A stretch of DNA of 64,000 bases from positions 7,626,001 to 7,690,000 of the forward strand of contig NC_081331.1 of assembly GCF_022539665.2 (NCBI RefSeq), in the 5' to 3' direction. Positions 16,712-47,817 of this stretch are shown here, one piece after another. Position numbers and translations under genes: made by a program. Source of the stretch: Daphnia carinata. Taxonomy: Eukaryota. Below the pieces are notes generated by a model. The model did no database searches. It was given only the letters and a program-made list of their open reading frames with translations, and was not told the origin of the DNA. Within the stretch, counting starts at the first letter, position 1. Every line of letters starts with the position of its first letter.

Positions 16712-17478
16712 GGCGGTGAAATAGGACTGAAACGAAAATAGGACTGAAAATTTCCAGGCCAATTTCTACAGGAGAAATAGGACTGGGAGAAATAGAACTG
16801 ATTTTTAAAATATTATAGGATAGTTCTATTTCTCTATGGCATCAGCCTATTTCTCCACGGCATTAGTCCTTTTTCTCCTACGAAATAGTCCTATTTCTTT
16901 TAGTTTGGTCCAATAACGATGAGCCTCCAATCCAATATGCAATGTATTGCGTAAGAACGTCGGATTATATCCATTTTTCCTTTACAAATATTGTAATTTT
17001 CGTAGTCATAAACAACTTTGTCCATTGCACTAATGTTTTACTATTTCATACAACTATCGTTACACAATATACAGCTCTTACATATTCTGATTTTGTTCTT
17101 ATAGTATTTTATTAAATGAATTCTATTAGATACAGCATAATTCCTGTTCCCCAGCAATTTAAATTAAAATAAGATAAAAAAGTTTATGTTTTGTGAACTA
17201 TTTAACTAACGAGATAACGCCATTGATCTTTCGAAAAGAAAAAGGATCTAAGCCGACGCTCTTACGTAATATATCGCCTATCGGATTGGAGGCTCATCTT
17301 TCCTATTGGACCAAAATAAAAAAAATAGGACTACTTTGAAAGAAAGATAGGACTAATGCCGTGGAGAAATAGGACTGTCCTAAAGTATTTAAAAGGAAGT
17401 CCTATTTCTGCCAGGCCTATTACCGCCAGTCCTATTTCTTCAGTTCTATTTCGTTTCAATCCTATTTCACCGGCTACC
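16712..17478. mobile_element. Non-autonomous foldback DNA transposon with AAATAGGACT-repeat TIRs
   Basis: Long inverted ends built of GAAATAGGACTG / CAGTCCTATTTC units; right terminus CCTATTTCACCGGCTACC; left terminus slightly truncated; second copy at 30319. Confidence 0.85.
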
Positions 17479-20353: not shown

Positions 20354-20465
20354 TTACGCCTGATAATCAGTTTAATTTTTTTAAATATATAGGCTTATCA
20401 AAAGCGATATCGGGAAGGTAATGGATTCAGCTCGTTAAATGTTACAAAACGCACAGGAGTCAGGG

Positions 20466-21464
20466 TGTCAGAAATTCTGACGGCCGACTCACAGACTACG
20501 GGCCAGGACGGGACTTGGAGTAGGAACTCAAACCCGGACGACGGGGGGCACCAAGACCTCAGGCGGAAGAAACCAGTTTAGATCCCGCGAGCAGAAATAG
20601 ACACACCGGTAGACGGTAATTGAGAGTAAGCGTGGCCGGAGGAAAAAGGCGACACGCCGTGTATAAAAACCTGGGACCCCGATACATATTATCCAAATAT
20701 GTTGACGTGTTTTACATCTATGTAGAGAGCGGTCTCTAACGAGTCACATCCGTACCTCTCTTCAAAAACCCAACGGAAAGAAGAAGGATAGATGCCGCCT
20801 CAAAGGACCTTGGAACATCGGAGAAGGGGAATTGGAGTATAGCAGGAAGGGATCATCCCGCGGTTAGAAGAAAGCAAAACAAGCGGCGACCTCTAGGCCA
20901 ACGTTGAAATTGATGTCTAAAATTAATAAGTTATTTGTCAACGGTGGGGTTTGTAGGGGTATAAAGAGGGGCTGAATAGGCCTATTCAATACACTCACAT
21001 TTTTGCACCGATCGCGTCTGGTAACTCGCTTTTTCACTTACTTGTCTCGTTGTTGTTGTGCCTGCTGTTCTCTCCGCCGCCGCTGGTCGCCGTTCGCCGC
21101 TGGGTTGCCGCCTCGTGCCTTTTGTGCCTGCCTGCCCGCCGATTCGTCGCCCCGCGCCGCCGCTTTCCCACCTCACCGCGCTGCAGCCTTCCAACAACCA
21201 AAGAGTAAGTAATTAGCAACTTCTTCCCTTATTAACTCTTGTAATTCTCTTAGGTGACGTCCACGCCGACGAGTGTCCAGCCCAGCCACCTTCGCCCGCC
21301 ACGATAGCTCCCCCAAACCGGGAGTCCTATCCTTCATCTTGCTTAACCGGCGACTCTTAGTCGACTCGCCCTTAATAAAATATATATACGCTAGCCCCTA
21401 TAAGGGCTAGGCCGTCTATTATTCTTGTTCTGAGTCGGCAGTCTCCGACGGTGGTTTTTCCACA
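20466..21464 (+). repeat. BEL-1 5' LTR
   Basis: Differs from the 3' LTR by ~2 substitutions and a 2-bp TA indel (by eye); TATAAA at 20960-20965, splice donor GTAAGT at 21205, AATAAA at 21374-21379. Confidence 0.97.
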
Positions 21465-22255
21465 TTTGGTCCTTCGAACCGGAGACGCGACCCCAAAAAA
21501 AAAAAAAAACAAACACACATTCAAACAAACACCCCTATTTCTTTTCCATTACAGTGTCTGACAACCTCCTGTTGCAGCACCAAACGGCAGTTTTTGCCCA
21601 CTTCCAGTTTCTCCTGGACACCGACGCCCGTAGCTACGAGCTCTGGAAAGAGCTGGAGAAGACCATCCCGAGAGGGGTATTTCGAAAGCTCCGCATACCA
21701 GAGCCCTTTCCCGAACAGAAATCCGGGGGAAAATCGACCGACAAGAAAACCCGCATCACCCCGTACAGCCGGCCCGTACCTCCCGGTACCATCGAGACCC
21801 CAGACCACTACCTCGACGCTCAGGAGCGAGCCCAGCTAGCCGCACTACAAGCCGTCCGGGATTCCAGCGCCGAGGTGATATCCGGAGCCCAGAAGGCCCG
21901 GGAAAACGCTGAGAAGCGGCGACAACTCTTACTAGAAACCAGCCGCCTCCGCCGTGATAAGGAGAACATCAGACGTCGAGAAGAAGCCCTCGCCCAAGCT
22001 CGGAGCCTCACCCCGGTGATCACCCCCGAGCCCCAGCCCGGACCTTCTCGACCACCCACCGCAGCCGTACCATCCGCCGCCCCAGAGACACCGAAGCGCT
22101 CCAAACACCGGACGCCTACTACCCCTCGGAAACTACGAAAATTTGTCCAAGAGGAGAAGGTGGACAAGCACCTGGCCCGGAAATTCGCCCGCACCGGGAT
22201 CATTTCTTCTTCCGACGAGGAGGAAATCTTGAAGTCTCCCCCTTTCTCCGCCTGA
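21204..22255 (+). CDS. BEL-1 accessory ORF0 (233 aa; predicted join 21204 + 21555..22255); basic/coiled-coil protein of unknown function
   Basis: Uninterrupted 233-codon frame with no Met; preceded by acceptor CTTTTCCATTACAG (AG 21553-21554). Joining LTR exon ...CAAAGA to TGTCTGAC gives ATG TCT GAC. Confidence 0.75.
21467..21483 (+). promoter_or_regulatory. Primer-binding site, tRNA-Tyr type
   Basis: TGGTCCTTCGAACCGGA is complementary to the 3' end of eukaryotic tRNA-Tyr (..CCGGCTCGAAGGACCA) with one mismatch. Confidence 0.8.
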
Positions 22256-22369
22256 AAAAATATATATTTGAAAAACAAAAAAAAAAAAAACACAACGTAA
22301 TAATATAATAAAATAAACAGAAATATATCAAACTAAAGCATCCACAAAGACTTGTTCACCTTTTTTACC

Positions 22370-23858
22370 ATGGCTACTTCTATACGGCAAACCAGACCCA
22401 CGCGCCCGGCCGAGGTCTCCGATTCTTCCGACGACTCCCAGAACGAGCAACGTTTAAGCCAGCTGGAAACCGAGATTCGACGTTTAAAAGAGATGTGGGG
22501 CTCACAAGTCATCACCAACCGTCAACACCAGCTAGGCATCGAAGAATTAGGCCAAACAATGCCCAAAAAGGCAGACGAAGACGAAGTTGACTCACTCACC
22601 GAACGTCTAGACCTCTTAGAGAAAAGAGTCAAGGACTACGATGAGTTGGAGAAAAAACTCGAGACCCTGACTGAGCTAATAAACACCATCAACGTCAAGA
22701 GCAATGAGGCGTTAAGTTCAGCGGCGGAATTGATGGAACAAGCCCGCCAAACCACCTGGGAGGCTCACATCCCAACAATCATCGACGCAGTCAAAGAAGA
22801 ATTAAAAGAGGTTATTAATCAAGCAAGGGAACCGAGGGATGACGACAGCTTACCCGGGCTTGAGAACAGCCCGCTGCGGCCAGCGGAACCCTTCCGCACA
22901 TCATCACGCGCCGACAATAACGGCGAGTCAAAGGCTGGGATACTTGAGGATCGAGACATCATCCTCAAGGAATTATTGGAAAGCATAGCACTAATGGATG
23001 CAGACCGAATAAACCGAGACCAGTACTTCGACATCGCGGAAGCTCGTTGGCAGGCCGTAATCACGATTCACGAGAAACTGGCCCAAGTATCAACGGCACC
23101 CGAGAAAGCGAAAGACCGACGACTAGAAGATAAGTACCGTGAAAAAATGAGGAAACTCCGAGAGAAGTACAAGCGTCTCGATGCCCAACCATCGGCCGTG
23201 GTGAGAACCGCACTCCCACTGCCCACCTTCAGCGGCGAGATAACCGCCTGGAAGGGTTGGAGGGCCATCTGGGCCACGTATGACACAGATACAAGGCTCT
23301 CCGAAGTGGAAAAGTTTCAATATTTACGCCTCAGTCTCAAAGGAAAGGCGGCGGAGCTCATCACACATCTAAACTTCGACAACAACCAGTATCAGGCCGC
23401 CATGGAGAGACTAGAGTCTCGCTTCGGGGACCCCGAAAAACTTAAAGCCCACTATATCAACGAGCTGAGAAATATTATAGCGGGCCGACTAAATGAAACC
23501 GCCACCACGAACCAACTACAGACCATGTTCGACGGGCTTACCAACACCAAACTGGCATTGGTAAGTCTAAAACTGGATATGGATAGTTATGGCTCGTACA
23601 TCGCGGGAGACGTATTAAAGGCCTTACCCCGGTCACTTACATCAAGGTGGCTGAGGGAAAAAATTTGCTGACAGAGATCAACCAACGTTCGACATGATCC
23701 TTAAGGAGCTCGATACAGAAATCAGGCTCCGAGAACGAGAAGAAGCCACTGCCAGGCGCCCTGAAACAACACTCCCTCCACGGGAAGAGCCGCAAGAACG
23801 CTCGATCCGAGCTTCTTGTTTCTTCTGTCAGCAGAACCACACGCACCATCGTTGAACC
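22370..23858 (+). CDS. BEL-1 Gag (DUF1759-like region and zinc knuckles); one frameshift and one stop near the 3' end
   Basis: LPTFSGEITAWKGW..LSEVEKFQYLRLSLKGKA..Y..A..RL..RFG; extra A in the run at 23658-23663; TGA at 23853-23855 replaces a zinc-knuckle Cys (CFFCQQNHTHHR*). Confidence 0.9.
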
Positions 23859-26800
23859 ATGCATACACCCCAAGCACGCCGAGAAATGTGTGAAAGGGAT
23901 AACCGGTGCCTGAAGTGTTTAGGCCGGTCTCATCGAACAGAACACTGCATGGCTAGAGTGCCTTGTAGAAATTGCCACAGCCTGGATCACAGTCCGGCGC
24001 TTTGTCTGTCAAGACAAAGACCGTCAACAAACATCGCCCGGGCCCAATCTCCTCAGCGGTCTTCAGGAAGAACGGTCACCATCGACACCAACATAAATAT
24101 CGCCCAGACCGCCAACGGATTGCCTACGTTCACGGCATTCATCAAGGGAGAACCCGGACACAAGATCCCCGTTTTGGGTCTAATTGACTCAGGAAGTCAA
24201 AGATCGTTTATCAAACGAAGAATCGCGCACGGCGCTGCTAAGGAGAACGAAGAAATAGAGGAGATAAGGATCAATACCTTTGGCTCTACGAAGGCGCAGA
24301 TTGAAATAACCAAATCGTACGACATTTGGTTAATCACTCAAACGGGTGATGAAATCAAACTTCGGACAACGGAGATGGAGTTTTTGGCCAAGGCTACACC
24401 GAAGACACACTCCGCCATTCGAGAGGTCTTGACACAGCGAGGAGAAAACCTCGCCGACGACCGCCGAGATCACGACCAAGGTGACGGGGAATTCGAGCTA
24501 GTGATTGGCTGCGACTACTACTGGCACCTTCTCTCTCACGAAACCTTACAAGGAGCTGATGACTCGGTGGCCTGTGCGAGCAAGCTAGGCTGGATCATCT
24601 TCGGTTCCCCGGGAGAGAACAGACAAACAACCGCACTTACCACTACGACGGACCCCAGTCGAGCGATGGTCGACTTTAAGGAATTTTGGACACTAGAACA
24701 CATGGGGGTTACACCCTCGGAGGCGGAAGACCCAAGTTTTCTTCAAACATATCAACATTCTATCAAAAGGGACAGCAGCGGGCGATATGAGGTTCTGTTT
24801 CCTTTCAAAGACAACCGAAGGGCGATGGAATCAAACAAAGGCATCGCGCTAGCCCGACTCAACAGTCTACTAAAAAGGATGAAAGGGGAAGACCGACGGT
24901 CATACCACGAGATCTTCCAACAGTACCTTGAGAAGGGATACATCGAAGAAGCTGACGGAAGTTATACCGGTATCTGTACCTACCTTCCGCACCGGCCCGT
25001 CATCAAGCAAGAGGCCACATCGACAAAAATCCGGCCGGTGTTCGACGGCTCAGCGCACCTTCATGGCCGGCCAAGCCTGAACGACCTGCTAGAAACAGGC
25101 CCGAACCTTAACCCCGAACTCTTAGCCGTGTTGCTAAGGTTCAGACGCCACAAGATATCATGGATGGCCGACATAACGCAGGCTTTCCTGCAAATCGGCA
25201 TACAAGAGGATCACGGACAAATCGTCCGATTCTTATGGGTCAGAAACCCCGACGAGGACCCAGTAAAACTAATAGAGTACCGCTGGAAGCGGGTACCCTT
25301 CGGACTATCCAGCAGCCCTTTCATCTTAAGAGCAGTGATCCTGAAATGCCTGGACGACAGTGGATCTGGGTACCCCGACCTTGTCAACCAGTTGCGGGAG
25401 CAAGTCTACGTGGACGACTGGTTGGGAGGAGCTGATAGCGTACAGCAGGCGGCCCAACTCATCACGCAGGCGATACACCTGTTCAGCACCGCAAAAATGG
25501 AATTACGAAAGTCGAACACCAACTGCAAGGAGCTGAGCAAGGAACTAAGCAATATGGAGTTTCAGAACGAGCTTATAAACGTGGGTCAGAATCCCGGGGC
25601 AACTATTAAAGCCCTCGGCGTAGCGTGGGACCCGTCGACCGATACATTTCAATTCAACGCCCAGAAGATCTTGGAGGAAGCCGGGAAGCTGGATAACAGG
25701 CCCTCAAAACGCAAGCTCTTTAGTCTTGCCCTTAGAGTCTTCGACCCCATGGGGCTGATATCTCCAGTGACCGTGATCGCAAAAATCATCATGCAGAAGA
25801 TATGGGCTGAAAAAATCGGGTGGGACGATCCCGTTCCCGCCAAAATTATCCCCCACTGGGAGACTTTCATCAAGGGCCTCGCCGATCTCGCCGACACCAA
25901 AATAGAACGCTGGATCGGACCAGAGACCCAACGCCTGCACCTCTTTTGCGACGCCAGTGATGACGCGTACAGCGTCGCGGCGTATATACAAAATGGGGCA
26001 CAAACCAGGCTCTTATGCAGTAAAACTAGGATCGCGCCAGATCCCAAAAAATCTGTGTCTACCCCTCGACTGGAGCTGCTGAGTAACTTACTCGCGGCTC
26101 GGCTAGGGAAATACATCGAAACCGCATTAGCAACACCCTTTGAGAAGATTTTGTGGACCGATTCTTCGATCGCCTACTGGTGGATCAAAGGGGAATCGGG
26201 ACGCTGGAAACAGTTCGTGCACAACCGGGTCTCGGAGATCAGGGAGACCATAGAAGCCGAAAACGTGAGGCATTGCCCGGGCACCCAGAACCCTGCGGAC
26301 ATCGCCTCAAGAGGAGCGGCCGTTAACGCATTAAACAAGACCATAGGATGGTGGTTCGGGCCCCAGTGGCTGACCGACTGCAGCCGATGGCCGACAGGTC
26401 CAAATTCGCCAGACCCAGACCGAATTAAGGATATCCACAAAGAAGAAAAACCCAAAGAGGTCACAGTAAGCACGGCCACAACGGAAAATCGATGGTACGA
26501 GAACCACAGTCGCCTACGATCAATTACGCGGATCTGGGCGACCGTCCGCCGAGCAATAACTCGGTTCCGAGGAAAGGAAAGCCCGGTCTCGACGACAGCC
26601 AAGGTGGCTTTTGGTCAGGCATTTCCCATGTTAACAGTGGACGAGGTAGAGATCGTCGAACTGGACCTGTGGCGAGAAACTCAACGGGACACGTTCGCCG
26701 AAGTAAGGAAGGCGCTAAGAAAAAACTTGGCCCCGCGACACGAGAAACTGAGAAAACTGGGGCTCGTATGGGACGACAAGGCCAGGTTAATAAGATGTGT

Positions 26801-28232
26801 TGGTCGCCATCAGAATTGGCTCCAATACAACCACAAACCAGCAGTGATACTCCTCCCCGAAGATCATTTTTTAACCAAGAAGTTAGTAGAACAAACACAC
26901 GAACGACTCCAACACACGGGAGTAAATACAACGATGCTGGAAATAAGAAGATCCTTCTGGATTCCAAGATTGAGACAGACCGTCAAAAAGGAGTTACGAC
27001 GGTGCGTTCGATGCCAAAGGTTAGACGCAAGGGCGTTCAACGAGATCCCGGGCCCGCTACCGCTTGACCGCCTGCAGATGTCCAATCCCTTCGAAGTAAC
27101 AGGAGTGGATTTCGCGGGCCCCTTCCCCCTCACGGGCCCCGCCGTCAACCACGAAGAAAAAGGATATATCTGTCTATTCACTTGTGCAGTGACGCGAGCA
27201 GTCCACCTGGAGCTCACCACAGGGCAGGACACGACGACTTTCATCAACGCGATAAGAAGATTCTTCGCGAGACGGGAAGTGCCCAAAGTGATGTATTCGG
27301 ACAACGCCCGCACATTCACTCAAGCAGCCCGGTATCTACGAGCATCCTACCGGAGTGAGCGCGTATATAACACGCTGTTGGATCTTAAGGTAAAATGGCG
27401 TTTTTCCCCAAGCCTCGCACCCTGGTGGGGCGGGTTCTGGGAAATAATGGTCCAAACCGTGAAGAAATTGATATATAAAACGTTCGGCAACGAGCGGTTA
27501 TCGTATGACGTGTTTCAAACCGTGCTAACGGAGATTGAAAACACCATCAACCTTAGACCGTTGACGTATGTCTCAGACGACGACGACGAGCCATTGACGC
27601 CGAAACAATTAATATCCGGACATCGCCAGAAACAGAAACACCCCGTCGACGAAGAAGAAAGGGAATACTCGACCCGCACAGCAATCACACAACGGGAACT
27701 AAAACGGCGGAAGCTCCTAGGCATTTGGTGGGAGAACTTCTACAAGGAGTACGTAGCAGATTTAGAAAAGTTCCATTGTCCATCGCCCAGAAGTACGAAG
27801 TCAGTGGAAGTCGGGCAGGTGGTCCTGATTCACGACGACCACTGCAAACGGTCTAAATGGAAAACCGGCAGGGTAGCGAAAATCTACCCAAGCTCAGACG
27901 GCAAGATTCGACGAGTGGCGGTGTTGATCGCAAATAAAAGTACCGGAGTCGGATCGACCCCGATCTACCGGGACATGAAAACACTGTTCCCGTTAGAACT
28001 ACATGCAGGGCAAATCGACAACGATCCTTCCAATATAGACCCATTTCCCTCGGATCAAAACCCGATATCGGAATCTGAGTCGGACTCTGATTTGGACAGC
28101 GGTCCAACGGGGGGAGTGTCAGAAATTCTGACGGCCAACTCACAGACTACGGGCCAGGACGGGACTTGGAGTAGGAACTCAAACCCGGACGACGGGGGGC
28201 ACCAAGACCTCAGGCGGAAGAAACCAGTTTAG
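23859..28232 (+). CDS. BEL-1 Pol (end of Gag knuckles, aspartic protease, RT, Pao RNase H/peptidase A17 region, integrase); ends inside the 3' LTR
   Basis: LIDSGSQRSFI, YLPHRPV, VPFGLSSSPF, YVDD, LHLFCDAS, PRLELL, GVDFAGP, CAVTRAVHLEL and PWWGGFWE in a 1457-aa open frame. Confidence 0.97.
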   Translation: MHTPQARREMCERDNRCLKCLGRSHRTEHCMARVPCRNCHSLDHSPALCLSRQRPSTNIARAQSPQRSSGRTVTIDTNINIAQTANGLPTFTAFIKGEPGHKIPVLGLIDSGSQRSFIKRRIAHGAAKENEEIEEIRINTFGSTKAQIEITKSYDIWLITQTGDEIKLRTTEMEFLAKATPKTHSAIREVLTQRGENLADDRRDHDQGDGEFELVIGCDYYWHLLSHETLQGADDSVACASKLGWIIFGSPGENRQTTALTTTTDPSRAMVDFKEFWTLEHMGVTPSEAEDPSFLQTYQHSIKRDSSGRYEVLFPFKDNRRAMESNKGIALARLNSLLKRMKGEDRRSYHEIFQQYLEKGYIEEADGSYTGICTYLPHRPVIKQEATSTKIRPVFDGSAHLHGRPSLNDLLETGPNLNPELLAVLLRFRRHKISWMADITQAFLQIGIQEDHGQIVRFLWVRNPDEDPVKLIEYRWKRVPFGLSSSPFILRAVILKCLDDSGSGYPDLVNQLREQVYVDDWLGGADSVQQAAQLITQAIHLFSTAKMELRKSNTNCKELSKELSNMEFQNELINVGQNPGATIKALGVAWDPSTDTFQFNAQKILEEAGKLDNRPSKRKLFSLALRVFDPMGLISPVTVIAKIIMQKIWAEKIGWDDPVPAKIIPHWETFIKGLADLADTKIERWIGPETQRLHLFCDASDDAYSVAAYIQNGAQTRLLCSKTRIAPDPKKSVSTPRLELLSNLLAARLGKYIETALATPFEKILWTDSSIAYWWIKGESGRWKQFVHNRVSEIRETIEAENVRHCPGTQNPADIASRGAAVNALNKTIGWWFGPQWLTDCSRWPTGPNSPDPDRIKDIHKEEKPKEVTVSTATTENRWYENHSRLRSITRIWATVRRAITRFRGKESPVSTTAKVAFGQAFPMLTVDEVEIVELDLWRETQRDTFAEVRKALRKNLAPRHEKLRKLGLVWDDKARLIRCVGRHQNWLQYNHKPAVILLPEDHFLTKKLVEQTHERLQHTGVNTTMLEIRRSFWIPRLRQTVKKELRRCVRCQRLDARAFNEIPGPLPLDRLQMSNPFEVTGVDFAGPFPLTGPAVNHEEKGYICLFTCAVTRAVHLELTTGQDTTTFINAIRRFFARREVPKVMYSDNARTFTQAARYLRASYRSERVYNTLLDLKVKWRFSPSLAPWWGGFWEIMVQTVKKLIYKTFGNERLSYDVFQTVLTEIENTINLRPLTYVSDDDDEPLTPKQLISGHRQKQKHPVDEEEREYSTRTAITQRELKRRKLLGIWWENFYKEYVADLEKFHCPSPRSTKSVEVGQVVLIHDDHCKRSKWKTGRVAKIYPSSDGKIRRVAVLIANKSTGVGSTPIYRDMKTLFPLELHAGQIDNDPSNIDPFPSDQNPISESESDSDLDSGPTGGVSEILTANSQTTGQDGTWSRNSNPDDGGHQDLRRKKPV

Positions 28233-29117
28233 ATCCCGCGAGCAGAAATAGACACACCGGTAGACGGTAATTGAGAGTAAGCGTGGCCGGAGGAAAAAGG
28301 CGACACGCCGTGTATAAAAACCTGGGACCCCGATACATATTATCCAAATATGTTGACGTGTTTTACATCTATGTAGAGAGCGGTCTCTAACGAGTCACAT
28401 CCGTACCTCTCTTCAAAAACCCAACGGAAAGAAGAAGGATAGATGCCGCCTCAAAGGACCTTGGAACATCGGAGAAGGGGAATTGGAGTATAGCAGGAAG
28501 GGATCATCCCGCGGTTAGAAGAAAGCAAAACAAGCGGCGACCTCTAGGCCAACGTTGAAATTGATGTCTAAAATTAATAAGTTATTTGTCAACGGTGGGG
28601 TTTGTAGGGGTATAAAGAGGGGCTGAATAGGCCTATTCAATACACTCACATTTTTGCACCGATCGCGTCTGGTAACTCGCTTTTTCACTTACTTGTCTCG
28701 TTGTTGTTGTGCCTGCTGTTCTCTCCGCCGCCGCTGGTCGCCGTTCGCCGCTGGGTTGCCGCCTCGTGCCTTTTGTGCCTGCCTGCCCGCCGATTCGTCG
28801 CCCCGCGCCGCCGCTTTCCCACCTCACCGCGCTGCAGCCTTCCAACAACCAAAGAGTAAGTAATTAGCAACTTCTTCCCTTATTAACTCTTGTAATTCTC
28901 TTAGGTGACGTCCACGCCGACGAGTGTCCAGCCCAGCCACCTTCGCCCGCCACGATAGCTCCCCCAAACCGGGAGTCCTATCCTTCATCTTGCTTAACCG
29001 GCGACTCTTAGTCGACTCGCCCTTAATCAAATATATATATACGCTAGCCCCTATAAGGGCTAGGCCGTCTATTATTCTTGTTCTGAGTCGGCAGTCTCCG
29101 ACGGTGGTTTTTCCACA
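28117..29117 (+). repeat. BEL-1 3' LTR
   Basis: Near-identical to 20466-21464; followed by TSD CAGGG. Confidence 0.97.
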
Positions 29118-30318
29118 CAGGGAATTCCACATTAATTGAATTGACGCGCAACATATATCTAAAGTTGAGAAGCGATATTGAAACTCAATTTAATGTAACC
29201 CTTCGATTTCTATGATAATTATTTACCTAGTCACTGTTAAAACGCCACACAGAAGCTCTATAAAATATTTGTTAAATACAATTAATTTCTTTTTTCACGA
29301 TACATTGCTCATTAGGCTGGATGGACCATGCGATGGTAAAGAAAAAAACATGGTTTTTCTTTCAGCTCCCTATCGGGTCCTGAAACCTTAATTTTTATGT
29401 ATTGCTTGTCTTTGAAAAAAGCGTTGAAAAAAAACAGGTATATAAGGGTTGGCGAACCCCACCAATGGTAGCCTTATGGCAACCCGCAAAATTAGAAAAT
29501 CCGCAAAACGGGAAGGGCCACCCCTCGCGCGACTTTTCCCGTTTTGTGGAGCCTCACTGTATAGGATTTCTCGAAGCAAAGGCCGCATTTCAGGCAACAG
29601 TTGAAAAACGAAGAAATAAATGCTGAAAAGCATTTGTCAGTGACCAATGTGCGCTTACCTGCATAGCAGAAAAATATTTCCTTGCAAGATGCGAACGACG
29701 GGGTTTTCCCATGGGAACATAGAAAGCATATGAACGTAGGAGTTGATAATTTTTGTTATTCTTCATTGTAATTTATAGTTCCATATAGTATCTTTTAGAG
29801 AGAATTCCCTTCTAATAGACAGCTGGGAGTTTTGCAAAACGGTTGACAAAGATCTACACTATTAACTGAAAATGAAAAATTTACTAAGACATTTTAAGAG
29901 CAAAACTAAACAACTACTGAAAAAAATCCAAAAGATTCTTCTGTCGAATGAATGGGATAAGCAATATAACAACAAAATTTCCAATAAGGGTATACTACTA
30001 CTCTCCCAAACTTTTCTTCTTTTTTGTTATGTCTTTGTAAGCTGTGTTAACTTCAGTTTAATTATAGCTTATGTTGATAATTGCCACCACCTTGATGGGA
30101 AAATCTGAGAAGAAAAGAGAGAGAGAAAATATAAGCTTTGAGATGGGTGGGGTGGACGAGAACCTAAGATGGGTAATGTTTTCACTTAAATCTAGAGACA
30201 ATCCCAATTGTCCGTATATATATGAAAATAGAAATCAATCTGACAAAGAGTCCTGATCACCAAGAATCGCAGACCCAAAATGATTCTGCCATCTTTTTTC
30301 GCTTGCATGGACGCTTAT

Positions 30319-30925
30319 GGTAGCCGGTGAAATAGGACTGGAGAAATCGGACTGACTTTTAAAAACTTTTAGGACAGTCCTATTTCTCCATGGCATCAGT
30401 CCTATTTCTCCTCGGCATCAGTCCTATTTCTCCTTAGAAATAGTCCTATTTCATTTACCTTGTTCCAAGGGGAACGATGGGCCTCCAATCCGGAAGGCAA
30501 TGTATTGCGTAAGAGCGCCGGCTTATATACATTTCTCTTTTTAAAAAACCAATGATGTTGACTCATTAGATAAGAGGTTCACAAAACTTTTTTTCTTATC
30601 CTATTTTAATTCAAATTACAGGAGAACATGAACTATATTGTATTTAACAGAGTTCATTTAACAAAATACTATTAGACATACTACAGAAATATTTATTACT
30701 TATATTGCACATTATGTGGTCATAACCAACTTTTCCAATTGACCTAATGTTTTACTATTTCATACATCTATCGTTATATACAGCTTTTACATATTCTGAT
30801 TTTGCTCGAATAGTTTTTTATTAAATGAACTCTATTAGATTCAAAATAACTTATGTTCCCCAGCAATTAAAATTAAAATAGGATAAGAGATAAAAAATTT
30901 GTGAACCATTTAAATAATGAGTGAA
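30319..30925. mobile_element. Truncated second copy of the AAATAGGACT foldback element
   Basis: Starts GGTAGCCGGTGAAATAGGACTG; internal sequence parallels 16780-17210. Confidence 0.8.
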
Positions 30926-30944: not shown

Positions 30945-31780
30945 TTAAATAAGTAATGCCAGTAGCGTTGCAAACTTATGCGATAAGTTAAGCGTAAGAC
31001 ACAACAGGACGTTAGATGCTGTAGCCTTAAAATGACGTAACATCATTGTTGGATCACAAGCGTGGGTATATTTCAGAAACGGTGGCCGGGTGTTATGCTT
31101 TCTTTTAACTAAACCGATTACGAAAGGTTGTTTGATCACATCCGACAAACCGGATAAGGCTAACTTGAGAGTTGGCGACAACATCGAAGGGATAAATATT
31201 GCTCGAGCTGTCATTCGTACCCTGTTTGAAAGAATCCCAGGAAACTAAACATTTCAATTATGCCAATCGACAAGGGATCAAAATCCCTTCGATAGCACAA
31301 GTCACGCTATGCTTGCAGTCCGACTGATATTCAGTGAATGAATTGCTGCGCGTTGCTGCAAACAGAAGTTCAACAACTCTAGCGAAGGCCCTATACTCAG
31401 AAGCAATTCCGAACAGTCTTCATACGATTAGTCGTATCGAACTGTTCCACGTAAAACGGTGGCTCTCCCCCAATTGTGATGTGAACTGAATATGATGGGC
31501 CTCAGAAGCCTCGGTATGTCTGTTGCACGTTCCAGCAGGGTAGGAAACCAGGCTTGGCTTGGTCAGTGCGAGGTGTTCAAAACCATGGATGTTTGATCCT
31601 TGATTACCTTCAATATGCAAACCATTGGAATCGGGCCGAACGGAGTAAAGACATATTCCTGTAGATTTCACCAAGTTATCAAGAATGCGTCTATCTTTCA
31701 GGCATTCCGTGTGCGGAAACCACCTGACAAATGTGGCTAGATGGTTCCATTCGTTGGCAAACAGATAGATTTCTATCAAC
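30945..31780 (-). mobile_element. Degraded DIRS1-type retrotransposon fragment (methyltransferase-like domain and start of tyrosine recombinase)
   Basis: Across frames: IYLFANEWNHLATFVRW../IDAFLITW*...YVFTPFGPIP...ILKVIKD...*PSQAWFPTLLE..DIPRLL, then HNTRPPFLKYTHACDP...LSHKFATLLAL, matching DIRS MT and YR consensus motifs. Confidence 0.75.
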
Positions 31781-31785
31781 TATCA

Positions 31786-31990
31786 ATTTGCGAGAAATGA
31801 TTTGCATGCCACGGTTGATCCGTTTGGTTGGTACATCATAGATGACGATCCATTCAGAATCGCCTAGCGCTAGGGTTCCCTCCGGATGAAACACCGCTCT
31901 TTCCGTCACCACGAACTTTCCTTTCATTTCATGCGCTTGGATCATCTGTCCAATGGCACAGACCACTGATAAAAGCAGCATGTTCTTCAT
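31786..31990 (-). pseudogene. N-terminus of an env/F-like glycoprotein fused in frame to Gypsy pol, truncated
   Basis: Signal-peptide-like MKNMLLLSVVCAIGQMIQA, then AVFHPEGTLALGDSEWIVIYDVPT, resembling the G..F...G......W....YD opening of errantivirus/baculovirus F-type Env. Confidence 0.55.
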
Positions 31991-34900
31991 CCAGCCTGGT
32001 GCCCGTCTTTGTCGGATCGGACGACCCGGTGGCGGTTCCACCTCCTCTTGAACCCCAGGCCTTGGCTCCTCTTCCACTTGTAGGCCTTCGCCAAAATCTT
32101 CCTCCTCTGTTAATTCCAGTGGTCGGCGTTTCGCCTTTCTCCTCGCGCCTTTCGTCTCGGGTTGTCCAACCACTGCCGCGGTGTCGCTTTCCAGCGATCT
32201 CTCCGGACTCGTGCCCGCACGCACTGCCGCCTCCGGTTCCTCGGCCATTGCCGTGGTTTCTGGTGGTCCCTCGCTGGTGTCGGCACGCGTCACGGTCTCA
32301 GCTTCCACCCCGCCATCAGATTCGTCATCCGTCTCTATAACAAACCTCTTCATTTGAGAAACATGGACCACAATGGTTCTCTTCTTAGTAGGCTTTCGAA
32401 GTTCCTAGTTTAACTCAGTGATCTGCCTGATCACCTTGAAAGGGCCTACGAACTGGTGCAGTAACTTTTCAACGAGATCTTTCTTCCTCTGCGGCCGGAA
32501 GATTAACACCAGCTCGCCGGGTTCGTATACCGGTGCCTCACTGACTCTGGTGTCGTACTGAGACTTCTGGCGCTGCTGCACCAGGGCCAGTCTATCTCTT
32601 ACGTCTTCTCTCAAGTTCGCCATCGCCTTCATCAGCTCCTTTGGGTCGGCCAGCTTCGGTCGATTCGGCCCCGTCGCCGCTAGCAGGTCCGTCGGAATCA
32701 CTGCTTCTCGCCCATTCACCAGCATGAAAGGTGTATGATTGGTGCTCTCCTGGCGCACCGAGTTGTACGCAAACGTGACAAACCCGAGGAATTCGTCCCA
32801 GTCTTCGTGACTTTCATCCACGTACATCGCCAGCATGGTCGCCAGCGTCTTGTTTTGTCGCTCCACAAGACCGTTGGCCTGTTGGTGGTAAGGTACGGAC
32901 ATCCGATGGGAAAGTCGTAGACGGGCGAACACCTCACGGGTTACTTCTGCCGTGAAGCACTTCCCTTGGTCGGACGTCAGCTCCCGCGGAAATCCATGCC
33001 GCTACACAATTTCTTCGACGAAGAATTTTGCTATTTGCCGAGCCGTGGCATCCGGTACGGCTCTCGTTTCTACCCACTTAGTAAGGTAGTCGATGGTAAC
33101 GATCACGTTTGTATTCCCGCTTCGAGATTGCGGGAATGGACCAAGGACGTCTATCCCGATCCTTTCGAATGGTCCTCCCACTTGCGTGATCTCCATGAGT
33201 CCCTTCTTTTTCCCTTGATCCGGCTTCCGTGTCTGGCAACTTTTACATGCCTTGACATACCGGGTCACTGCTCTATCCAGAACAAGATCACAGAATAAGT
33301 ACTTAGACTATGGACAAGACATGTGGTTTAGAACACGAAGTCGACTAAATATAAATTGTGAAGAGAGATACCTAGGAGTCGGTGAAGTGATTTCCTTGGG
33401 TCAGAGGATACAAGTTCACGAGACAAGAAATGGACGTGTAGTGTCAGAAACGTAGGGGTTGGAGCAGACGAAACATAATTACGATTGGGGAAAAGGATAT
33501 TAGGGTTAAACATCAATTTTAGTGGTTGGTCTGTCATCGCCTCATTCTTCATTACGCTAGGCTTAAGTGGTAGGCTCTAAAGACGTAGTTTTCGCCGGAA
33601 CAATTCCTTTTCCCTCCATTGCCGTGAGAGGATACGCCGTCTTGGCGAAGTTCGGCGCAAACTTGCGATAGAAGAAGCAAAGGCCTACAAAGCTCTTCAC
33701 CCACTTCCTCTTTACTTTTTCACTAGCATTGAGGTTTGGGCCAGGGAACGTTTCAATGGCCTTGCAGTGGTCAGGATCCAGTTCGATTCCGGCTCGGCTC
33801 ACGACATGGCCCAACATCCGCACACGCTCATTCCCGAAGGCACACTTTTCAATCTTCAGCTTTAAGTTCGCCCTCCGGAAGCACGACAAGACTTTTCCGA
33901 GCCTCTCCATGTTCCTTTGCATCCCTCCCGAAGATGACTACATCATCCATGTACACCAGACAATCGGTCCACTTGAGCCCTGCCAACACCATATCCATGA
34001 GCCGCTGGAATGTGCTCGGTGCTGAACACAATCCAAACGGCATCACCCGAAACTGATAAAGGCCGTCAGGCGTCGCAAACGCTGTCTTCGGCTTGTCTCC
34101 TTCGGCAACTGGCACCTGCCAGTACCCGCTCTGAAGGTCTACAACACTGAAAAGTGTCGCTCCCTCCAGCTTCGATAATGCATCGTCGATGCGTGGAAGT
34201 GGATAGACGTCCTTCGTCGTTACATCATTTAGACGTCGGTAATCTATGCAGAATCGCCACTTCCCATCCTTCTTCTTCACAAGGACTATTGGCGATGACC
34301 AAGGGCTCTGCGCAGGTTCAATAACCCCCTGCCGCAGAATCTTGTCTACCTCCGCCTTAATTAGCTCCCGTTCCTGCCAGGCGTGTCGCCTTGGCAACTG
34401 CTTGATTGGCGCCGCATCACCCGTAGGTATAGCATGCTCCAGAACAATACACTGTCCAAGACAATCGCTGCCTTCAGCGAACACATCTTAGAAACCCATC
34501 AAAAGCGAAATGAGATCTATGCGATCTTCTCCTGTCAGTGTCTTCGCCACACATTCCTCGAACATAGCCGGGTCTTGTTTTCCAGGCCGTTCACTGCCTC
34601 TTCCGGCTGCACGCCCATCTTCCATTTCCAGTGGAAGACCACTGCTCTAGTCGACAGCCACCAATTGCCCAAGCGATGTCCCTTCCACAATTACATGATC
34701 TGTGTGGTAGACGTTCATCACGTGAACCACAGCATCCGACTTGGTGCAGTCAATCAGAGCGTGACCCGCTGATAGGCCACTTTTCTCGCGAAGCTTCTTC
34801 GACGGGCGGAGGAGCATAATTGCGTCTATACTTTCTCCCTCCGGGATAGACACCTTGACCGGCACAGCACTCCTTTTCGGAACCGTGACACGCACTGTTG

Positions 34901-37478
34901 CGGTCACCTTCCTTAAGGAATCGCCTCCTCCGGCTGCTCCAATGTCGATCGCCCCAAGCTCCACTGTCGGAGGGCTGCTAAAGCAGATCTTAATTCCTCA
35001 AAGAGCTTCAACAAATTCCTTCCCAAGACAAAGTCGGGTCCAAAAGTTTTCAGCATGACAGCTTCCCCTTACACCGACGTTTTATTATTTCTCACCGTCA
35101 GGGCAACTTTCCCTCTTGGTTGCATCGGTTGTCCATCAGCTGTCACCACGATGGGTCCATCCCATGGGGTAATTTTCAACTTCAATTTCCTTGTTAATGA
35201 CGGCGTAATTACAGAAATTACCGCTCCCGTGTCCACTAAAGCTTCAACGGTGCATCCACCAATCCAAATTTCTTCGGTGGGCTGCTGATCGCCGCCATTG
35301 ACCGCTCCATTTGATTGGCTCTGCTCTCCGCCAATCACAGCACAGGCTGCTTTTGGCTCCGCCCCCTCCGGCTTCGTAGGCTTTGGCGTGCCGTCTCGCT
35401 TCTTTTCCTTTGGACAATTCCTTGCGATATGTCCTTCTTCATCGCAATTATAACATCCGAATGGGTTCTTCTTCTTCGGCTTCAGGTTATTTTCTTTTTT
35501 TTCACCCTCGATGTTTTTCTTTCCCGACGGCTCTCTCGCCTTGGCCAGCTCATCGCGCAGCTCCTGTATCTGCCACTGGAGCTCTTGCATCTTGTCAAAG
35601 CCTACTCCCCCGATGGGAGCTTTCTCATTTTCCCGGCGCGCATCTTCATAGCCTCTTTCATAGGCCGTTTTCACAGCATCTGCATGGAGTCTTGTTTTTT
35701 CCAAAAACTCCTCGCAGGTCGTGATTCCGAGCACGTACAGCCTTTCCGAGCACGTAAAGCGCTGGGCTTAACCCCCTGAACAGATGGTCAATGCAAACTT
35801 CTTCCGCCATATCCGGTTGCACGATACGGCACAAATCCATAACGTCGTGGTAATACTCCGTTATGTCTTCGTCTTTCCCATGGACTCTCATCCGCAGCTT
35901 CCTCTCTATTTGTCGCTTCAAGTTTACCGCAACAAACTGCTTCAAAAACAACGATTTGAGCCCCGGTACTTCCCTCTCGCGCGCTGGCTGCCCTTGCTCC
36001 GCCGCCAATCTCTCTCTTCGGTCTTCCCAGTGCTCCGGACGCGCGTTCCGCGCCTCAAGGTCTAGAATCCATTTGTAGGCCGCTCCCTCGAGCGACACGT
36101 CTATCGCTCTCGCCAAGTCATTATTGGTCCATCTGTTGTGGCGACCGATCCTTTCAAATCGATCAATCCACTCCACAGCATTTTCTTCGCCTTGCCGCGG
36201 AATTTCTCCGCCTCCTTATACTGGAAGATCGGCCTTTCCGCCATGTCCTCCTCCTCTGCCAGAAAAGGATCCCAAGCTAGTTCCTCTTCCTGAGCTATGG
36301 ACTGCCGCCTTGGTGAATCCCCGACACTAAGTCCACTTCTTTCTGGCCTGACCAACACCGCTGCGTGCGGCGTGCTAGACGCTCGAGGTCGTAGGCCTTC
36401 GCGCAGGCTTCTTCTTTCAAAGTCCGCTTTCGCTCTTCCGCCGCGTCGCGTTCTTCTCTCGACAACTGCTCACTATCAGCACCTGACGATCTCTCGGTGA
36501 TACCAGTGATGTCGGCTTCCACGCCAATCGTGCTTCTTCTGTCACCAGCGCCTTCCGCTTGCACTGACACTGGACGCGCCCCTTCCTGGTTTTCGGTCAC
36601 CGTCTCTTGCGCGAGCGAATTCGTCGCAATAGTCCGCTGAACTCGCGCCCCTTGATCGCTGCTAACGGCCTCCACCTTCCGCTGCCTGCTTCCCGCCGGA
36701 ATGGCTCGTATTTCGATCCTTTCCTGGTTTACGGGTCCTGCTACTTGCAGGATGTGCGACGCAGCGTCTTCCACCTCCGGTAGTCGCGTATGCAATTTCC
36801 GGTCTCAGTCGACAACCCACTCTTCCTGTCGCTCCGCTTCTCCCGCTCCGGCTCGTGTGTCGACCGCGCTCTCAACCACACGGGCACCCTCACGATGCTC
36901 GTATGCCACCGTCGGCTCGTATCCCCCCTTTTCCGCAGCCCACCTGGTTTCTTGACTCTCGAAAACCTGGTGACTCAGCCTCCACGAATTCCTCACCCTG
37001 TTGTTCGGAATCCAACTCAAACTGCGTCAAATCTGGGATACTTCTTTGTTTGGATACCTTTTCGGCTACACACGCACCTCTCTGCCTGAAAGTAAGCTCA
37101 TTCACCTCACCACGGGGGCCTCTTGATCGTCCCTTAGACCGCACTGACGTTGCACCTGCCTCCTGTAATCTCGTCGAAGCTCGTGCTACTGCACTTAGAG
37201 GTGTCGTTGGCCTCAAACCCGTGTAATAGGTCTAAATCTCCTTCGCCGCCTCTTCAGCTGCTCGTCTACGACTCCTTTCCCCAGCGTCTGGAATCACACC
37301 TCTCCCGTGTGACATCAAAACGAGGACCCACCGCGACTCACTGTCAATCACACGTTCTATCAGACCGTTGTTGTGGCCTCGTGCCCAACAATAAATTGCT
37401 GAGTTCGACTTCCAGAGACCCCTCACAACAAACGCCTACCTGAGTTAAACGTGCAGTTGACCAGTTAAGAACGCAGGA

Positions 37479-38349: not shown

Positions 38350-41300
38350 ATGAGCCACCTTAAACCGCCGCAAAAAAGACATCTCCAAGATAATAGCGAC
38401 GAAGAATGGCCCCTCCCCAGCATAGCCCACCCCCGCCGTCCTCCGGTAAGCCTCCCTATCGTAATTCTCAAAGTAACCGATGGCAAGGCGAACTTCCGAC
38501 AAATGGATATGTCAGCTCTCAAATCCATTGTCCATGAGATCACAAAACTGATAGGCAAACCAAGACACTCTGACTGCCCCCGCGGAGGCGACATGTTCGT
38601 TTACCCTATCGATACCACACAACAACAAGCTCTTTTGCAACTTACCAAAATAGCAGGCCGAACAATTATTGCCTCTCTCCCAAACTCTCTCAGTGGTAAA
38701 AAGGGAATCATAAAAAGAGTCCCCCTCTCCGAATCTGATGAAGATCTTCTCGACGCACTGAAAGACCAAGGAGTTGTAAAGGCGCAGCGGTTTTTCAGAA
38801 ACAACGCTGGCTCCAAAGAACCGTCCGAGACCGTCCTCCTTACGTACGACAAAGCCCTTGCAGCCAGGATTACCATCATCGCTCTTAACTTCCCGGTTCT
38901 TACCTACTACCCCTCTCCCTACAAATGCTCCATTTGCTTTCGTCTAGGTCACACAAGAAACTATTGCTCTAGTCCCAGTGGCACCTGTAAAAACTGCGAT
39001 ATAACTCATGACCCCACAGACATCTGTATCCAAAAGTGTATTAATTGCAACAGTTTCTCCCGCACCTCGAATCCAATAATTGTCCGATTTATGAAGAGCT
39101 AACCGGCCTTATCAAATATGCCATAGACAAAAACATAACAGTCAAAGAGGCCCGCGCACACATCATCGGATCTTACAGCTCAGTAGTTCGCCGTCCAACA
39201 GTTTTGCCTCCTGTGCAAACAAGCTGGCCGGACACGAACCAAATTGAAAAAATGAAAACAGAAATCCAGCTGCTCCAAGAAAAATTAAGATCCCTAAAAG
39301 ACATCACCATCAACAACATAGAATCAAAAATAGACAGCGTTAAATCAGATGTAGACAGCACTAACAGCAGAATTACTCAATTTAAAGCAAAATTTTCTGG
39401 GCGTTTCGATCAGCTAGGACACATTCTACTCACACGGCTACCTGCCCCTAATTCCATGGATACCACCTCTGTCCCCGACTCAGAATCTAGCTCGTCCTCC
39501 CACGACTCCATTACAAATTCCAAAACTCCTTCCCAAATCCAAATCCGCAACGACTATAGCTCTGGAGGGAAAAACTATAAGACCCATAAATACAAAAGTA
39601 ACAAATTAAAAATTTCAAATGTATCTAGTGGAACGCGTGTGGCCTCACTAGGTCCCGCTTAGAAGAATTCCGCAATTTTCTTAGTTCACAAAAACCCTCT
39701 GTTGTACTCCTATGTGAAACCTTTTGGAAGGACTCCTTTTCTGTTAAATTCAGCTGCTATAACATTATCCTAAAAAATCGAACTGGCCGGTCTGGCGGTG
39801 GAGTTGTCATACTAGTACACCACTCTCTCCCACATGCCCCATTGACTCTCACAAATAGCCCTAAACTCGAAACAGTAGGCATCACTATTAACACCTCCAA
39901 CAAGACGGCGATCGACATAATCTCCACATACTATCCCTCGGGTGACTGCACCAAGGAAGAAATTCTGCCACTACTTGATCGCAAAAACAACCTGATACTT
40001 GGGGGGGGGGGACTTTAACGGCCACCACAAGCTATGGAGCCAGGTATCTAACTCAAATAGAAGCGGAAAATCTATTTATAGTGCCCTAATAGAAACCCCC
40101 GGACATTGCTCTAATTACCCCCTACTCACTGGGAACTTACATAAGCCCTACTACCGGGAAAACATCAACAATCGACCTTACATTCTGCTCCCCTTCCATC
40201 GCTTGCGATTCCACCATCACACTAGGTCCATACCTTGGCAGCGACCATTTCCCGGTCATCATGAAAACCAAAATTACCCCCGAGAAAGAACTGTCTTTTC
40301 ACCTAGATGGATATTCCGAGATGAGCTATGGACCGACTGGAATGCCCACATACATAAATTTCTCCTCAGCAAACACTACACTGAAAAGACAAACCCAGTC
40401 GAAACATAAGTTATTCCATGATGCCGTAATGGATGCCAGTCATACATTCTTCAAGCTGAGCTCCCCTACAAATCGCATCACACCAGAACCAAGTAAGCCT
40501 TGGTGGAATAAGGGCTGCGATTACCATGTGCGCACTACCAGGAAGGCCCTCTCTGACTGGCGCTCAGACCCTTTCTCGGATAACAAAAAGATCGCTTGGA
40601 AAAAAGCTGAGGCTCAAAAAAGAAAAACCTTAATCAATGCCAAGAAACAATCATGGCAAACATTCATTACCAGCCTCAGCTCACACAAAGACCAACATAT
40701 CATGTGGGCATTTGCCAAAGGGATGACCGGCCGCGGTCCCACCCCATCTGCAAACGGGCATCCACTCCTTCTGACAGATGGGACTTTAATAAACGATCCC
40801 GGAGAAAAAGCTAATATATGTCTAAAAACATTCATAGACAACTCCAATAGCCACCCCGAAGAACAAGCTAACATAAAAGAAGCCATAAGGACAGCCATCG
40901 CGTCGCCAGACTACAGCGCTCTCAACTCCCCCATCGCATCAGGTGAAATTACTCAAGCCCTTAAAAGACGCAAAAGTAACTCAATGGGCCTAGACCTCAC
41001 GCATAATAAAATGATGTCTAACCTCACATTCGACAACCGTGAGATGCTTCACCACCTATTCAACACTCTCCTCGCCAACGGTTCTACCCCAAATTACTGG
41101 AAAGAAGCCCTAATAATCCCGATCCTCAAACCCAACAAAAATGCAGAAGATCCAGCGTCCTTTCGCCCTATATCTCTCACATCATGTCTAGGGAAAACAA
41201 TGGAAAGGGTCATTAAGAACCGGCTGGTCTGGCATCTAGAAGAAAACAACCACTTGCAACCATCGCAAGCCGGCTTTCGTCCCGGTAGAAGCACACTAGA

Positions 41301-47466: not shown

Positions 47467-47817
47467 GTACATCATAGAAAAACATCACTATAGTAATTAC
47501 ATTAATTAAATACCTACCTACTTGACAATACCATAGGTGTAAGAAATAAAAGCAATTAATGTTTACCTGTATCGAAAGTCCATTTGTCGGTAGATCGGGA
47601 ATCCGTTTGAGGTTTACAGTCCCAACCATCAAGTAAAAAAAAAAAGGTCTAAAGTCTTAATGTCGATGGCACTGGAGTACTCTTATCGGAAAGTGTGGCG
47701 CTCGTTGGGTTCAGCAACAATTTATTGTTGCGCCCAAACGTCGGGGACCAGTAGTTCAAACGTCGGGCTCCAGATGTCCAAGTGTCGGAAACCTGCAACC
47801 AAAAGTCGGAAACCCTG
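47467..47817 (-). mobile_element. One-ended insertion with a hAT-like terminus, replacing part of the BEL-2 protease region
   Basis: BEL coding stops after YIDQGSNATLI and resumes near TGIRAIESKFGW; right edge reads CAGGGTTTCCGAC on minus. Confidence 0.5.

What the first reader, a model, noticed from the sequence alone, without database searches (positions are those of the whole stretch)
20960..22372. Splice-created start codon gates a hidden accessory gene in a BEL/Pao retrotransposon
Seen: a 233-codon open frame (21555-22255) lies between the PBS and gag and contains no Met. It is preceded by a textbook acceptor (CTTTTCCATTACAG, AG 21553-21554). The LTR has TATAAA (20960) and a donor A|GTAAGT (21204/21205). 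Joining them gives CAACCAAAG-A+TG-TCT-GAC, an in-frame AUG with A at -3. The intron (21205-21554) removes the LTR AATAAA, U5 and the PBS, and tandem AATAAA signals follow the ORF (22307-22317). Established: canonical BEL/Pao elements encode one Gag-Pol ORF, occasionally with a downstream env; spliced accessory mRNAs are typical of complex retroviruses. Inference: spliced RNA makes an accessory protein and cannot be reverse-transcribed, while unspliced RNA makes Gag-Pol.
Basis: partly seen in the sequence, partly recalled or inferred. Interest (0 to 1): 0.9.

Follow-up and report, generated by a model that had tools for sequence, protein, structure and literature searches.

The report
Splice-gated extra gene in retrotransposon
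A jumping gene of the BEL/Pao class, likely from a water flea, carries a conserved extra gene that has no start codon in the DNA and is predicted to gain one only when its RNA is spliced, which would let one promoter switch between a likely regulatory protein and the copying machinery.

Summary
A BEL/Pao element (20466-29117) has an AUG-less ORF between the primer-binding site and gag, a perfect donor in the LTR (A|GTAAGT) and an acceptor directly before TG; joining gives AUG. The ORF is a conserved new family: 30 relatives, named ones all Daphnia. Homology starts exactly at the split codon. Of 31 N-termini, 14 read Val there (13 preceded by Ser/Pro/Thr/Ala, as CAG|TG predicts) and 14 read Met; Daphnia magna gene models join LTR-derived sequence to it as Lys-Met, while unspliced readings of the same LTR run Lys-Ser-Asn (A|GT-AA). 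The 1,457-base stretch before gag has no ATG (0 of 3,000 shuffles), so unspliced RNA would start at gag. No RNA reads or relatives' DNA could be obtained, so splicing is inferred. Corrections: this copy's gag-pol is broken, and the 3' LTR lacks the AATAAA. The protein is basic, without a membrane helix; a Rev/CERV-like nuclear role is my best guess (about 0.35). Each part has precedent in Gypsy-type elements; I found none reported in BEL/Pao.

The parts
20461..20465 (.). 5-bp target-site duplication CAGGG, left copy (right copy 29118-29122)
20466..21464 (+). 5' LTR, TG...CA, 999 bp
   Evidence: differs from the 3' LTR at 20486 and at the 21376-21379 cluster
20960..20965 (+). TATA box; start of transcription inferred near 20988
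   Evidence: sequence; the reading NTLTFLHR at 20988 recurs in the LTR-derived tail of D. magna model P0032
20988..21204 (+). predicted non-coding exon 1 (LTR R region), ends in the A of the split AUG; no ATG
21205..21554 (+). predicted 350-base intron: donor GTAAGT 21205-21210, removes LTR end and PBS, acceptor AG 21553-21554
   Evidence: signatures in relatives
21374..21379 (+). AATAAA in the 5' LTR only; the 3' LTR reads AATCAA
21467..21484 (+). primer-binding site, begins TGG two bases after the LTR
   Evidence: the priming tRNA was not identified with a tool
21555..22255 (+). ORF0: TG plus 232 codons plus stop; 233-residue basic protein if spliced; three-helix N-terminal part, 64-residue helix, disordered Pro/Ser-rich linker, conserved C-terminal motif
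22307..22317 (+). two overlapping AATAAA, followed by a T-rich tract at about 22351-22366: predicted internal poly(A) site
   Evidence: sequence; use not shown
22370..23660 (+). gag from the first ATG after 20913; DUF1759; frame changes near 23660
23658..28232 (+). rest of gag-pol: three Cys-His boxes (in-frame stop at 23853-23855 in the first), protease region, RT, Peptidase_A17, integrase zinc-binding domain, DUF5641
28109..28116 (+). polypurine tract
28117..29117 (+). 3' LTR, 1001 bp, carries the same donor at 28856

Best explanation
This is a BEL/Pao LTR retrotransposon with a conserved extra gene (ORF0) that lacks a genomic ATG and likely gets its start codon from a splice joining the last A of an LTR exon to the TG after the acceptor, so that spliced RNA would make ORF0 and unspliced RNA would make Gag-Pol. 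Steps: (1) transcription starts near 20988 (inferred); (2) the 350-base intron is removed, creating AUG and deleting the PBS, so this RNA cannot be reverse-transcribed (join shown in sequence, use inferred); (3) it likely ends at the AATAAA pair after ORF0 (inferred); (4) in intron-retaining RNA the first AUG is that of gag, 1.38 kb in (shown), so scanning ribosomes would pass ORF0 (inferred); (5) ORF0, basic and without a membrane helix, most likely acts in the nucleus to favour the unspliced, full-length RNA, as Rev and CERV do (guess from circuit logic, about 0.35; the confidence below is for steps 1-4).
For: Family of 30 relatives at E<=0.001 among 1.84 billion representatives, 46-47% identity over 96% for the two best. 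Homology starts at the split codon. Of 31 N-termini: 14 Val, 13 of them preceded by S/P/T/A (background 22%; 8 of 9 clusters at 75% identity, P 4e-5 to 1.4e-3 for backgrounds of 0.22-0.35), with 40% Phe+Leu in the six residues upstream against 13% in Met-type models. P0045 (LFLIA-V-SDN) and P0046 (HHTK-M-SDN) are 96% identical over the next 74 residues. P0044 reads ATK-M-SDN where P0024 and P0032 read ATK-S-N-T, as A|GT-AA requires; the window reads K-S-K unspliced. P0032's tail shares an exact 8-residue reading with both window LTRs (67 of 20,000 shuffles). Longest ATG-free stretch of the + strand is 20914-22369, ending at gag; next is 629. Met is 15 of 4,084 residues in 18 ORF0 bodies against 27 of 1,884 in this gag-pol (P 1.5e-5). 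P0035 links a distant ORF0 to BEL gag.
Against: No RNA read, junction or poly(A) site was seen, and no DNA of a relative was read: codon-level claims on relatives are inferred from their proteins. The 7 proteins with Met at residue 1 do not discriminate, since gene callers may write a GTG start as Met (recalled). P0002 (M-Y-L-M-A-E) could be a plain genomic ATG; P0009 and P0016 do not fit N-TG cleanly, and P0010 has Asp before Val. The distant subfamily's donor reads GT-AA-Y, weaker than consensus, and P0024 uses a second join point. Most relatives keep one or two internal Met, so their leaders are not wholly AUG-free. Nothing tested bears on the protein's function.
Confidence: 0.75

Rival explanations
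1. ORF0 is translated from the unspliced RNA by weak initiation at the GUG codon (21554-21556), and most ribosomes leak past it to gag; the splice signals are incidental.
For: GTG (Val) is the commonest read-through residue, 14 of 31; the window has A at -3 of this GTG; the AUG-free leader fits leaky scanning equally; MDG1 elements express upstream ORFs with no splicing.
Against: Across relatives the residue before Val varies among S, P, T, A, so the -3 base of the GTG is not a conserved purine while the -2 base stays C, which is what a CAG acceptor needs; upstream residues are Phe/Leu-rich; the LTR donor signature with A before GT recurs in a distant subfamily.
Confidence: 0.12
2. The splice switch is real but ORF0 does something other than RNA export: a transcription activator of the LTR or a suppressor of host silencing, made early from the short RNA.
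For: Basic protein (pI 10.0), long helix, conserved acidic Ser-rich C-terminal motif; MDG1 sORF1, the closest architectural match, is nuclear with unknown role. This rival shares steps 1-4 with the best explanation.
Against: No DNA-binding or known domain found; the strong donor, strong acceptor and internal poly(A) pair create a need for a factor that protects unspliced RNA.
Confidence: 0.3
3. Active members of the family have an ordinary genomic ATG and the copies with GTG are decayed.
For: 14 of 31 N-termini read Met, 7 at residue 1; P0002 reads Y-L-M; this copy has other lesions.
Against: Val occurs in 9 separate clusters spread over the whole tree, so it would need repeated identical ATG-to-GTG changes; near-identical pairs differ only in what lies upstream (P0045/P0046, P0026/P0042).
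Confidence: 0.06
4. ORF0 is the N-terminal part of Gag, reached by read-through or a further splice.
For: ORF0 and gag are in the same frame; models P0035 and P0048 fuse ORF0 pieces to gag-like sequence.
Against: The 12 full-length relatives shown end at the same conserved C-terminal motif as the window; gag relatives P0005 and P0006 begin at their own Met; the spacer is A-rich with stops and poly(A) signals and shows no pyrimidine-led acceptor before gag.
Confidence: 0.04

Closest known systems
Belpaoviridae (BEL/Pao LTR retrotransposons; ICTV profile PMC8742986, whole text read)
   Same: LTRs of 1 kb, 8.65-kb genome, PBS, PPT, gag-pol with DUF1759, Peptidase_A17, RT, integrase, DUF5641.
   Different: [quoted passage not shown]
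Springer-subclade insect endogenous retroviruses, env (PMC12992720, passages and supplement passages)
   Same: Start codon split by a splice: the env exon is spliced from an AU dinucleotide; the intron removes sequence needed for replication.
   Different: Metaviridae; split is AU|G, the intron spans gag-pol and the product is a downstream envelope. Here A|UG, donor inside the LTR, a 350-base intron, and an upstream soluble protein.
MDG1-group sORF1 (412, mdg1; bioRxiv 2025.03.14.642691, passages and section 7)
   Same: Accessory ORF upstream of gag, short transcript ending at an internal poly(A) site after it, nuclear protein.
   Different: Metaviridae; no splicing seen; about 110 residues; comes with membrane protein sORF2. 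Sequence homology to ORF0 was not tested.
CERV of C. elegans Cer1 (PMC10309623, abstract and sections 6, 9, 15) and retroviral Rev/Rex (Rev as described there; Rex recalled)
   Same: Accessory protein from a spliced RNA of an LTR element; required for export of unspliced genomic RNA, the role proposed here.
   Different: CERV has 517 residues, five exons, overlaps gag and has Cys-loop and G-like domains; ORF0 has none of these. The likeness is in circuit logic only.

Membership tests
Belpaoviridae (BEL/Pao) | LTRs of 0.2-1.2 kb flanking a 4.2-10 kb genome, with target-site duplication | tested here: met
   999/1001-bp LTRs, 8,652 bp, CAGGG duplication
Belpaoviridae (BEL/Pao) | BEL-type gag and pol domains, integrase after RT | tested here: met
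   DUF1759, RVT_1 (weak, below cut-off), Peptidase_A17, Integrase_H2C2, DUF5641 in that order; three Cys-His boxes
Belpaoviridae (BEL/Pao) | 18-nt PBS for tRNA-Arg or tRNA-Gly; polypurine tract | tested here: inconclusive
   PBS-like TGG motif and purine tract are present; no host tRNA in the window; by recall the motif looks like tRNA-Tyr, untested
Belpaoviridae (BEL/Pao) | Intact gag-pol in one or two ORFs (autonomous copy) | tested here: not met
   frame change near 23660 and in-frame stop at 23853-23855; marks this copy as defective as assembled, not as outside the family
env-like or sORF2/FAST-like infectivity protein | membrane-spanning helix | tested here: not met
   highest 19-residue Kyte-Doolittle mean 0.71
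Rev/CERV-like export factor | made from a spliced RNA of the element | tested here: inconclusive
   comparative signatures support it; no RNA seen
Rev/CERV-like export factor | sequence or fold likeness to Rev or CERV | tested here: inconclusive
   no significant Pfam, PDB or BFVD match; only generic long-helix matches, Z up to 6.4
Rev/CERV-like export factor | nuclear location, binding to unspliced RNA, needed for its export | not testable with these tools
   needs localisation and knockdown
MDG1 sORF1-like | short RNA ending at an internal poly(A) site after the upstream ORF | not testable with these tools
   AATAAA pair present; no RNA run listed
MDG1 sORF1-like | homology to sORF1 | not tested
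   no sORF1 sequence was returned by any search

The most novel reading that the evidence does not exclude
A lineage of Daphnia BEL/Pao elements has evolved the two-phase programme of complex retroviruses on its own: a default splice from the LTR builds the AUG of a new Rev-like protein and discards the primer-binding site, and that protein then licenses the unspliced, AUG-free-leader genome for Gag-Pol translation and packaging.
Probability: 0.3. Interest if true: 0.85.

Novelty: new variant of a known kind. Interest (0 to 1): 0.7.

Why it matters
BEL/Pao elements are described as simple gag-pol(-env) elements whose replication is poorly understood. A conserved accessory gene without a genomic start codon is invisible to ORF finders, and Daphnia annotations carry it as hypothetical host proteins fused to neighbouring exons. 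If the splice switch holds, it shows a regulated early/late programme in a retroelement family not known for one, adds a new protein family, and gives a direct test in a tractable animal of how intron-retaining retroelement RNA escapes splicing and premature polyadenylation. It also suggests that other LTR elements hide genes behind split start codons.

Tried and rejected
No genome is held for the window, so sibling copies and dN/dS could not be examined. No RNA holder was listed; this is no evidence on expression, and no reads were laid. DNA of ORF0 relatives: none in metagenome contigs (0 of 205 candidate stretches) or viral contigs (0 of 123, 31, 26); gag or pol queries gave one chance-level viral locus and two distant metagenome BEL fragments (L001-L003, not analysed further) and nothing in genome contigs. 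The BEL/Pao nucleotide supplement of PMC3118150 could not be read (50 characters); two other supplement searches found nothing; that unread file may hold Daphnia copies that bear on the claim. Function searches: Pfam on 18 members gave no hit at cut-off; PDB sequence searches none significant; folds gave no Foldseek match in PDB or BFVD and only generic helix matches in the wide search, which barely tests the N-terminal part; ESM Atlas gave no usable hit for P0001 and three later tries did not complete. The leader 20990-21600 folds no better than shuffles (z -0.84). Out-of-frame ATG absence within ORF0 alone is not significant (P 0.41 by codon shuffle, 0.11 by synonymous resampling); the signal comes from the whole leader and from Met scarcity. 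Earlier scan notes: four look-ups, nothing. Literature: nine searches listed no paper on an upstream or spliced accessory ORF in BEL/Pao or Daphnia elements, judged from listings; Repbase reports and subscription journals are not covered. No complex prediction was sent.

Full report
The element. Two LTRs, 20466-21464 and 28117-29117, begin TG, end CA and are flanked by CAGGG on both sides; they differ at one base and at one small cluster. A PBS-like motif follows the 5' LTR and a purine tract precedes the 3' LTR. Pfam finds DUF1759, Peptidase_A17, an integrase zinc-binding domain, DUF5641 and a weak RT match, so this is a BEL/Pao element. Against its closest relative, a Daphnia carinata protein 70% identical, gag-pol changes frame near 23660 and has an in-frame stop at 23853-23855: the copy is young but defective as assembled, or carries assembly errors. 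The host is likely a Daphnia; this rests on the relatives' names only.

The observation. The donor A|GTAAGT at 21204/21205 is the only full GTRAGT between 20990 and the acceptor; such a site with A before it arose in 1.9% of 20,000 shuffles. The AG at 21553-21554 is the first YAG after the PBS, with 14 of 17 pyrimidines upstream. Joining gives AUG in frame with 232 further codons. There is no ATG in any frame from 20914 to 22369; this 1,457-base gap is the longest on the + strand (next 629, the 3' LTR), it ends exactly at the gag ATG, and 0 of 3,000 dinucleotide shuffles of 20990-22369 were ATG-free (mean 8.3). Overlapping AATAAA signals follow the ORF. One correction: the LTR AATAAA is in the 5' LTR only.

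ORF0 is a gene family. A word-indexed search gave 3 relatives, the best two 46-47% identical over 96% of the length; a profile search of 1.84 billion representatives gave 30 at E<=0.001; a wider profile gave 22, nine of them new. With cluster members I held 49 proteins. All named ones are from D. magna or D. sinensis; the rest come from Logan, JGI, ENA or MetaClust, and for several the source was not looked up. One D. magna model carries a distant ORF0 followed by BEL gag sequence, tying that subfamily to the same place. Twelve full-length relatives end at the same conserved C-terminal motif.

The start codon in relatives. No DNA of relatives could be fetched, so I read the signals from proteins. 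Of the 49, I left out 14 that lack the N-terminal region and 5 near-duplicates; with the window that leaves 31 N-termini. Homology starts at the split codon. Fourteen read Val there; 13 of these have Ser, Pro, Thr or Ala before it (all N-C-N codons, as CAG|TG needs; background 22%), and 40% of the six upstream residues are Phe or Leu, as a pyrimidine tract gives. At 75% identity these fall into 9 clusters, 8 conforming (P 4e-5 to 1.4e-3 by background); the clusters are kin, so this overstates independence. Seven D. magna gene models read Met with an in-frame upstream extension, three as Lys-Met like the window's AAG-A|TG. Seven read Met at residue 1; these do not discriminate, because gene callers may write a GTG start as Met (recalled). 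One reads Leu (still N-TG), one Trp and one Gln (exceptions). P0045 and P0046 are 96% identical after the codon yet read LFLIA-V and HHTK-M, the unspliced and spliced readings. P0002 (M-Y-L-M) is the one candidate for a genomic ATG.

The donor in relatives. In a subfamily about 30% identical in ORF0, model P0044 reads ...ATK-M-SDN, while P0024 and P0032 read the same upstream sequence on as ATK-S-N-T. Ser-Asn after Lys is what A|GT-AA encodes; the window reads K-S-K through its donor. That upstream sequence is LTR: P0032's tail shares the exact reading NTLTFLHR with both window LTRs at the inferred transcription start (20988, 28639; 67 of 20,000 shuffles gave any 8-mer match), and P0046 has a similar reading 63 codons before its Met, against 72 in the window. 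So donor, acceptor and phase appear conserved over a long distance. Caveat: the models may be ab initio, and P0024 uses a second join point further down.

Met scarcity. Eighteen ORF0 bodies hold 15 Met in 4,084 residues (0.37%) against 27 in 1,884 in this gag-pol and 1.7-2.0% in three relatives (Fisher P 1.5e-5; eight less redundant ones 6 in 1,893). This fits selection to keep the unspliced leader nearly free of AUG. Most relatives keep one or two, so the rule is not absolute.

The protein. It has 43 Lys/Arg, pI 10.0, eight Ser/Thr-Pro sites and no membrane helix. A model of residues 1-155 from 33 sequences (mean pLDDT 82.6, pTM 0.44) shows three short helices and one 64-residue helix; the full-length model from 5 sequences is low-confidence after residue 160. 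No family or fold match stood out.

How it most likely works. Shown: the motifs, the AUG that the join makes, the loss of the PBS with the intron, and gag as first AUG of the unspliced sequence. Inferred: splicing, the internal poly(A) site, and scanning across the leader. Guessed: the role. A strong short intron plus an internal poly(A) pair would make the short ORF0 RNA the default, so the element needs a way to keep and export full-length RNA; a basic soluble product of the default RNA is the natural candidate, as for CERV. I put the switch at 0.75 and the Rev/CERV-like role at about 0.35; an activator or anti-silencing role is nearly as likely.

Comparison with what is known. The ICTV profile (PMC8742986, whole text) gives gag, pol and optional env only. 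Springer-clade env is spliced from an AU dinucleotide (PMC12992720, passages and supplement passages), so a splice-made start codon is not new in LTR elements. MDG1-group elements have an upstream nuclear sORF1 on a short, internally polyadenylated RNA, without splicing (bioRxiv 2025.03.14.642691, passages and section 7). CERV is a spliced export factor of Cer1 (PMC10309623, abstract and three sections). Passages of the D. pulex LTR survey (PMC2996953) and the BEL/Pao survey (PMC3118150) contain no occurrence of 'splic'; PMC3383448 held none of my terms. Nine searches listed nothing on this gene; Repbase and subscription papers were not covered, and one supplement with BEL/Pao sequences could not be read.

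Verdict. A real, conserved and apparently undescribed accessory gene of Daphnia-type BEL/Pao elements, with good comparative but no direct RNA evidence for a splice-made start codon. New variant of a known kind; interest 0.7.

Noticed in passing
window 29026-29035 against 21374-21379: The LTRs differ at the presumed poly(A) signal: AATAAA in the 5' LTR, AATCAA plus a longer AT run in the 3' LTR. The signal that ends the full-length RNA is therefore unclear.
   Followed up: partly
window 21209: A second, weaker donor (GTAATT) four bases after the main one is also preceded by A and would also create AUG.
   Followed up: no
window 21606-21607: A second strong acceptor inside ORF0 (13 of 17 pyrimidines); homology of P0011, P0018 and P0020 starts about there. 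A join to it would give no AUG.
   Followed up: no
window 23561: A consensus donor G|GTAAGT inside gag; the closest relative P0005 has Ile rather than Val at the matching residue, so it may not be conserved.
   Followed up: no
window 45945-50892: A second, decayed BEL/Pao element (DUF1759, RT, Peptidase_A17), 34% identical to P0005, with no ORF0 match by tblastn.
   Followed up: partly
window 31691-35767 (minus strand): Fragments of another LTR-type element: zinc knuckle, aspartic protease, RT, integrase core.
   Followed up: no
window 40093-41685; 51945-54415; 61919-62374: A LINE-type endonuclease-RT fragment, hAT transposase pieces with a BED finger, and a sorting-nexin C-terminal exon.
   Followed up: no
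window 16846-17394 and 30358-30894: Related inverted-repeat elements (MITE-like) on both sides of the BEL element.
   Followed up: no
proteins P0008, P0016, P0039, P0047, P0048: Daphnia annotations carry ORF0 as hypothetical host proteins fused to unrelated upstream sequence, one to a MULE transposase domain.
   Followed up: partly
window 22175-22250 (ORF0 C-terminus): A short motif of the form LA(R/K)(K/Q)Fxx(x)G(L/I)xTS(S/D)EEExxLKSP is kept across subfamilies about 30% identical; likely a binding or phosphorylation site, partner unknown.
   Followed up: no
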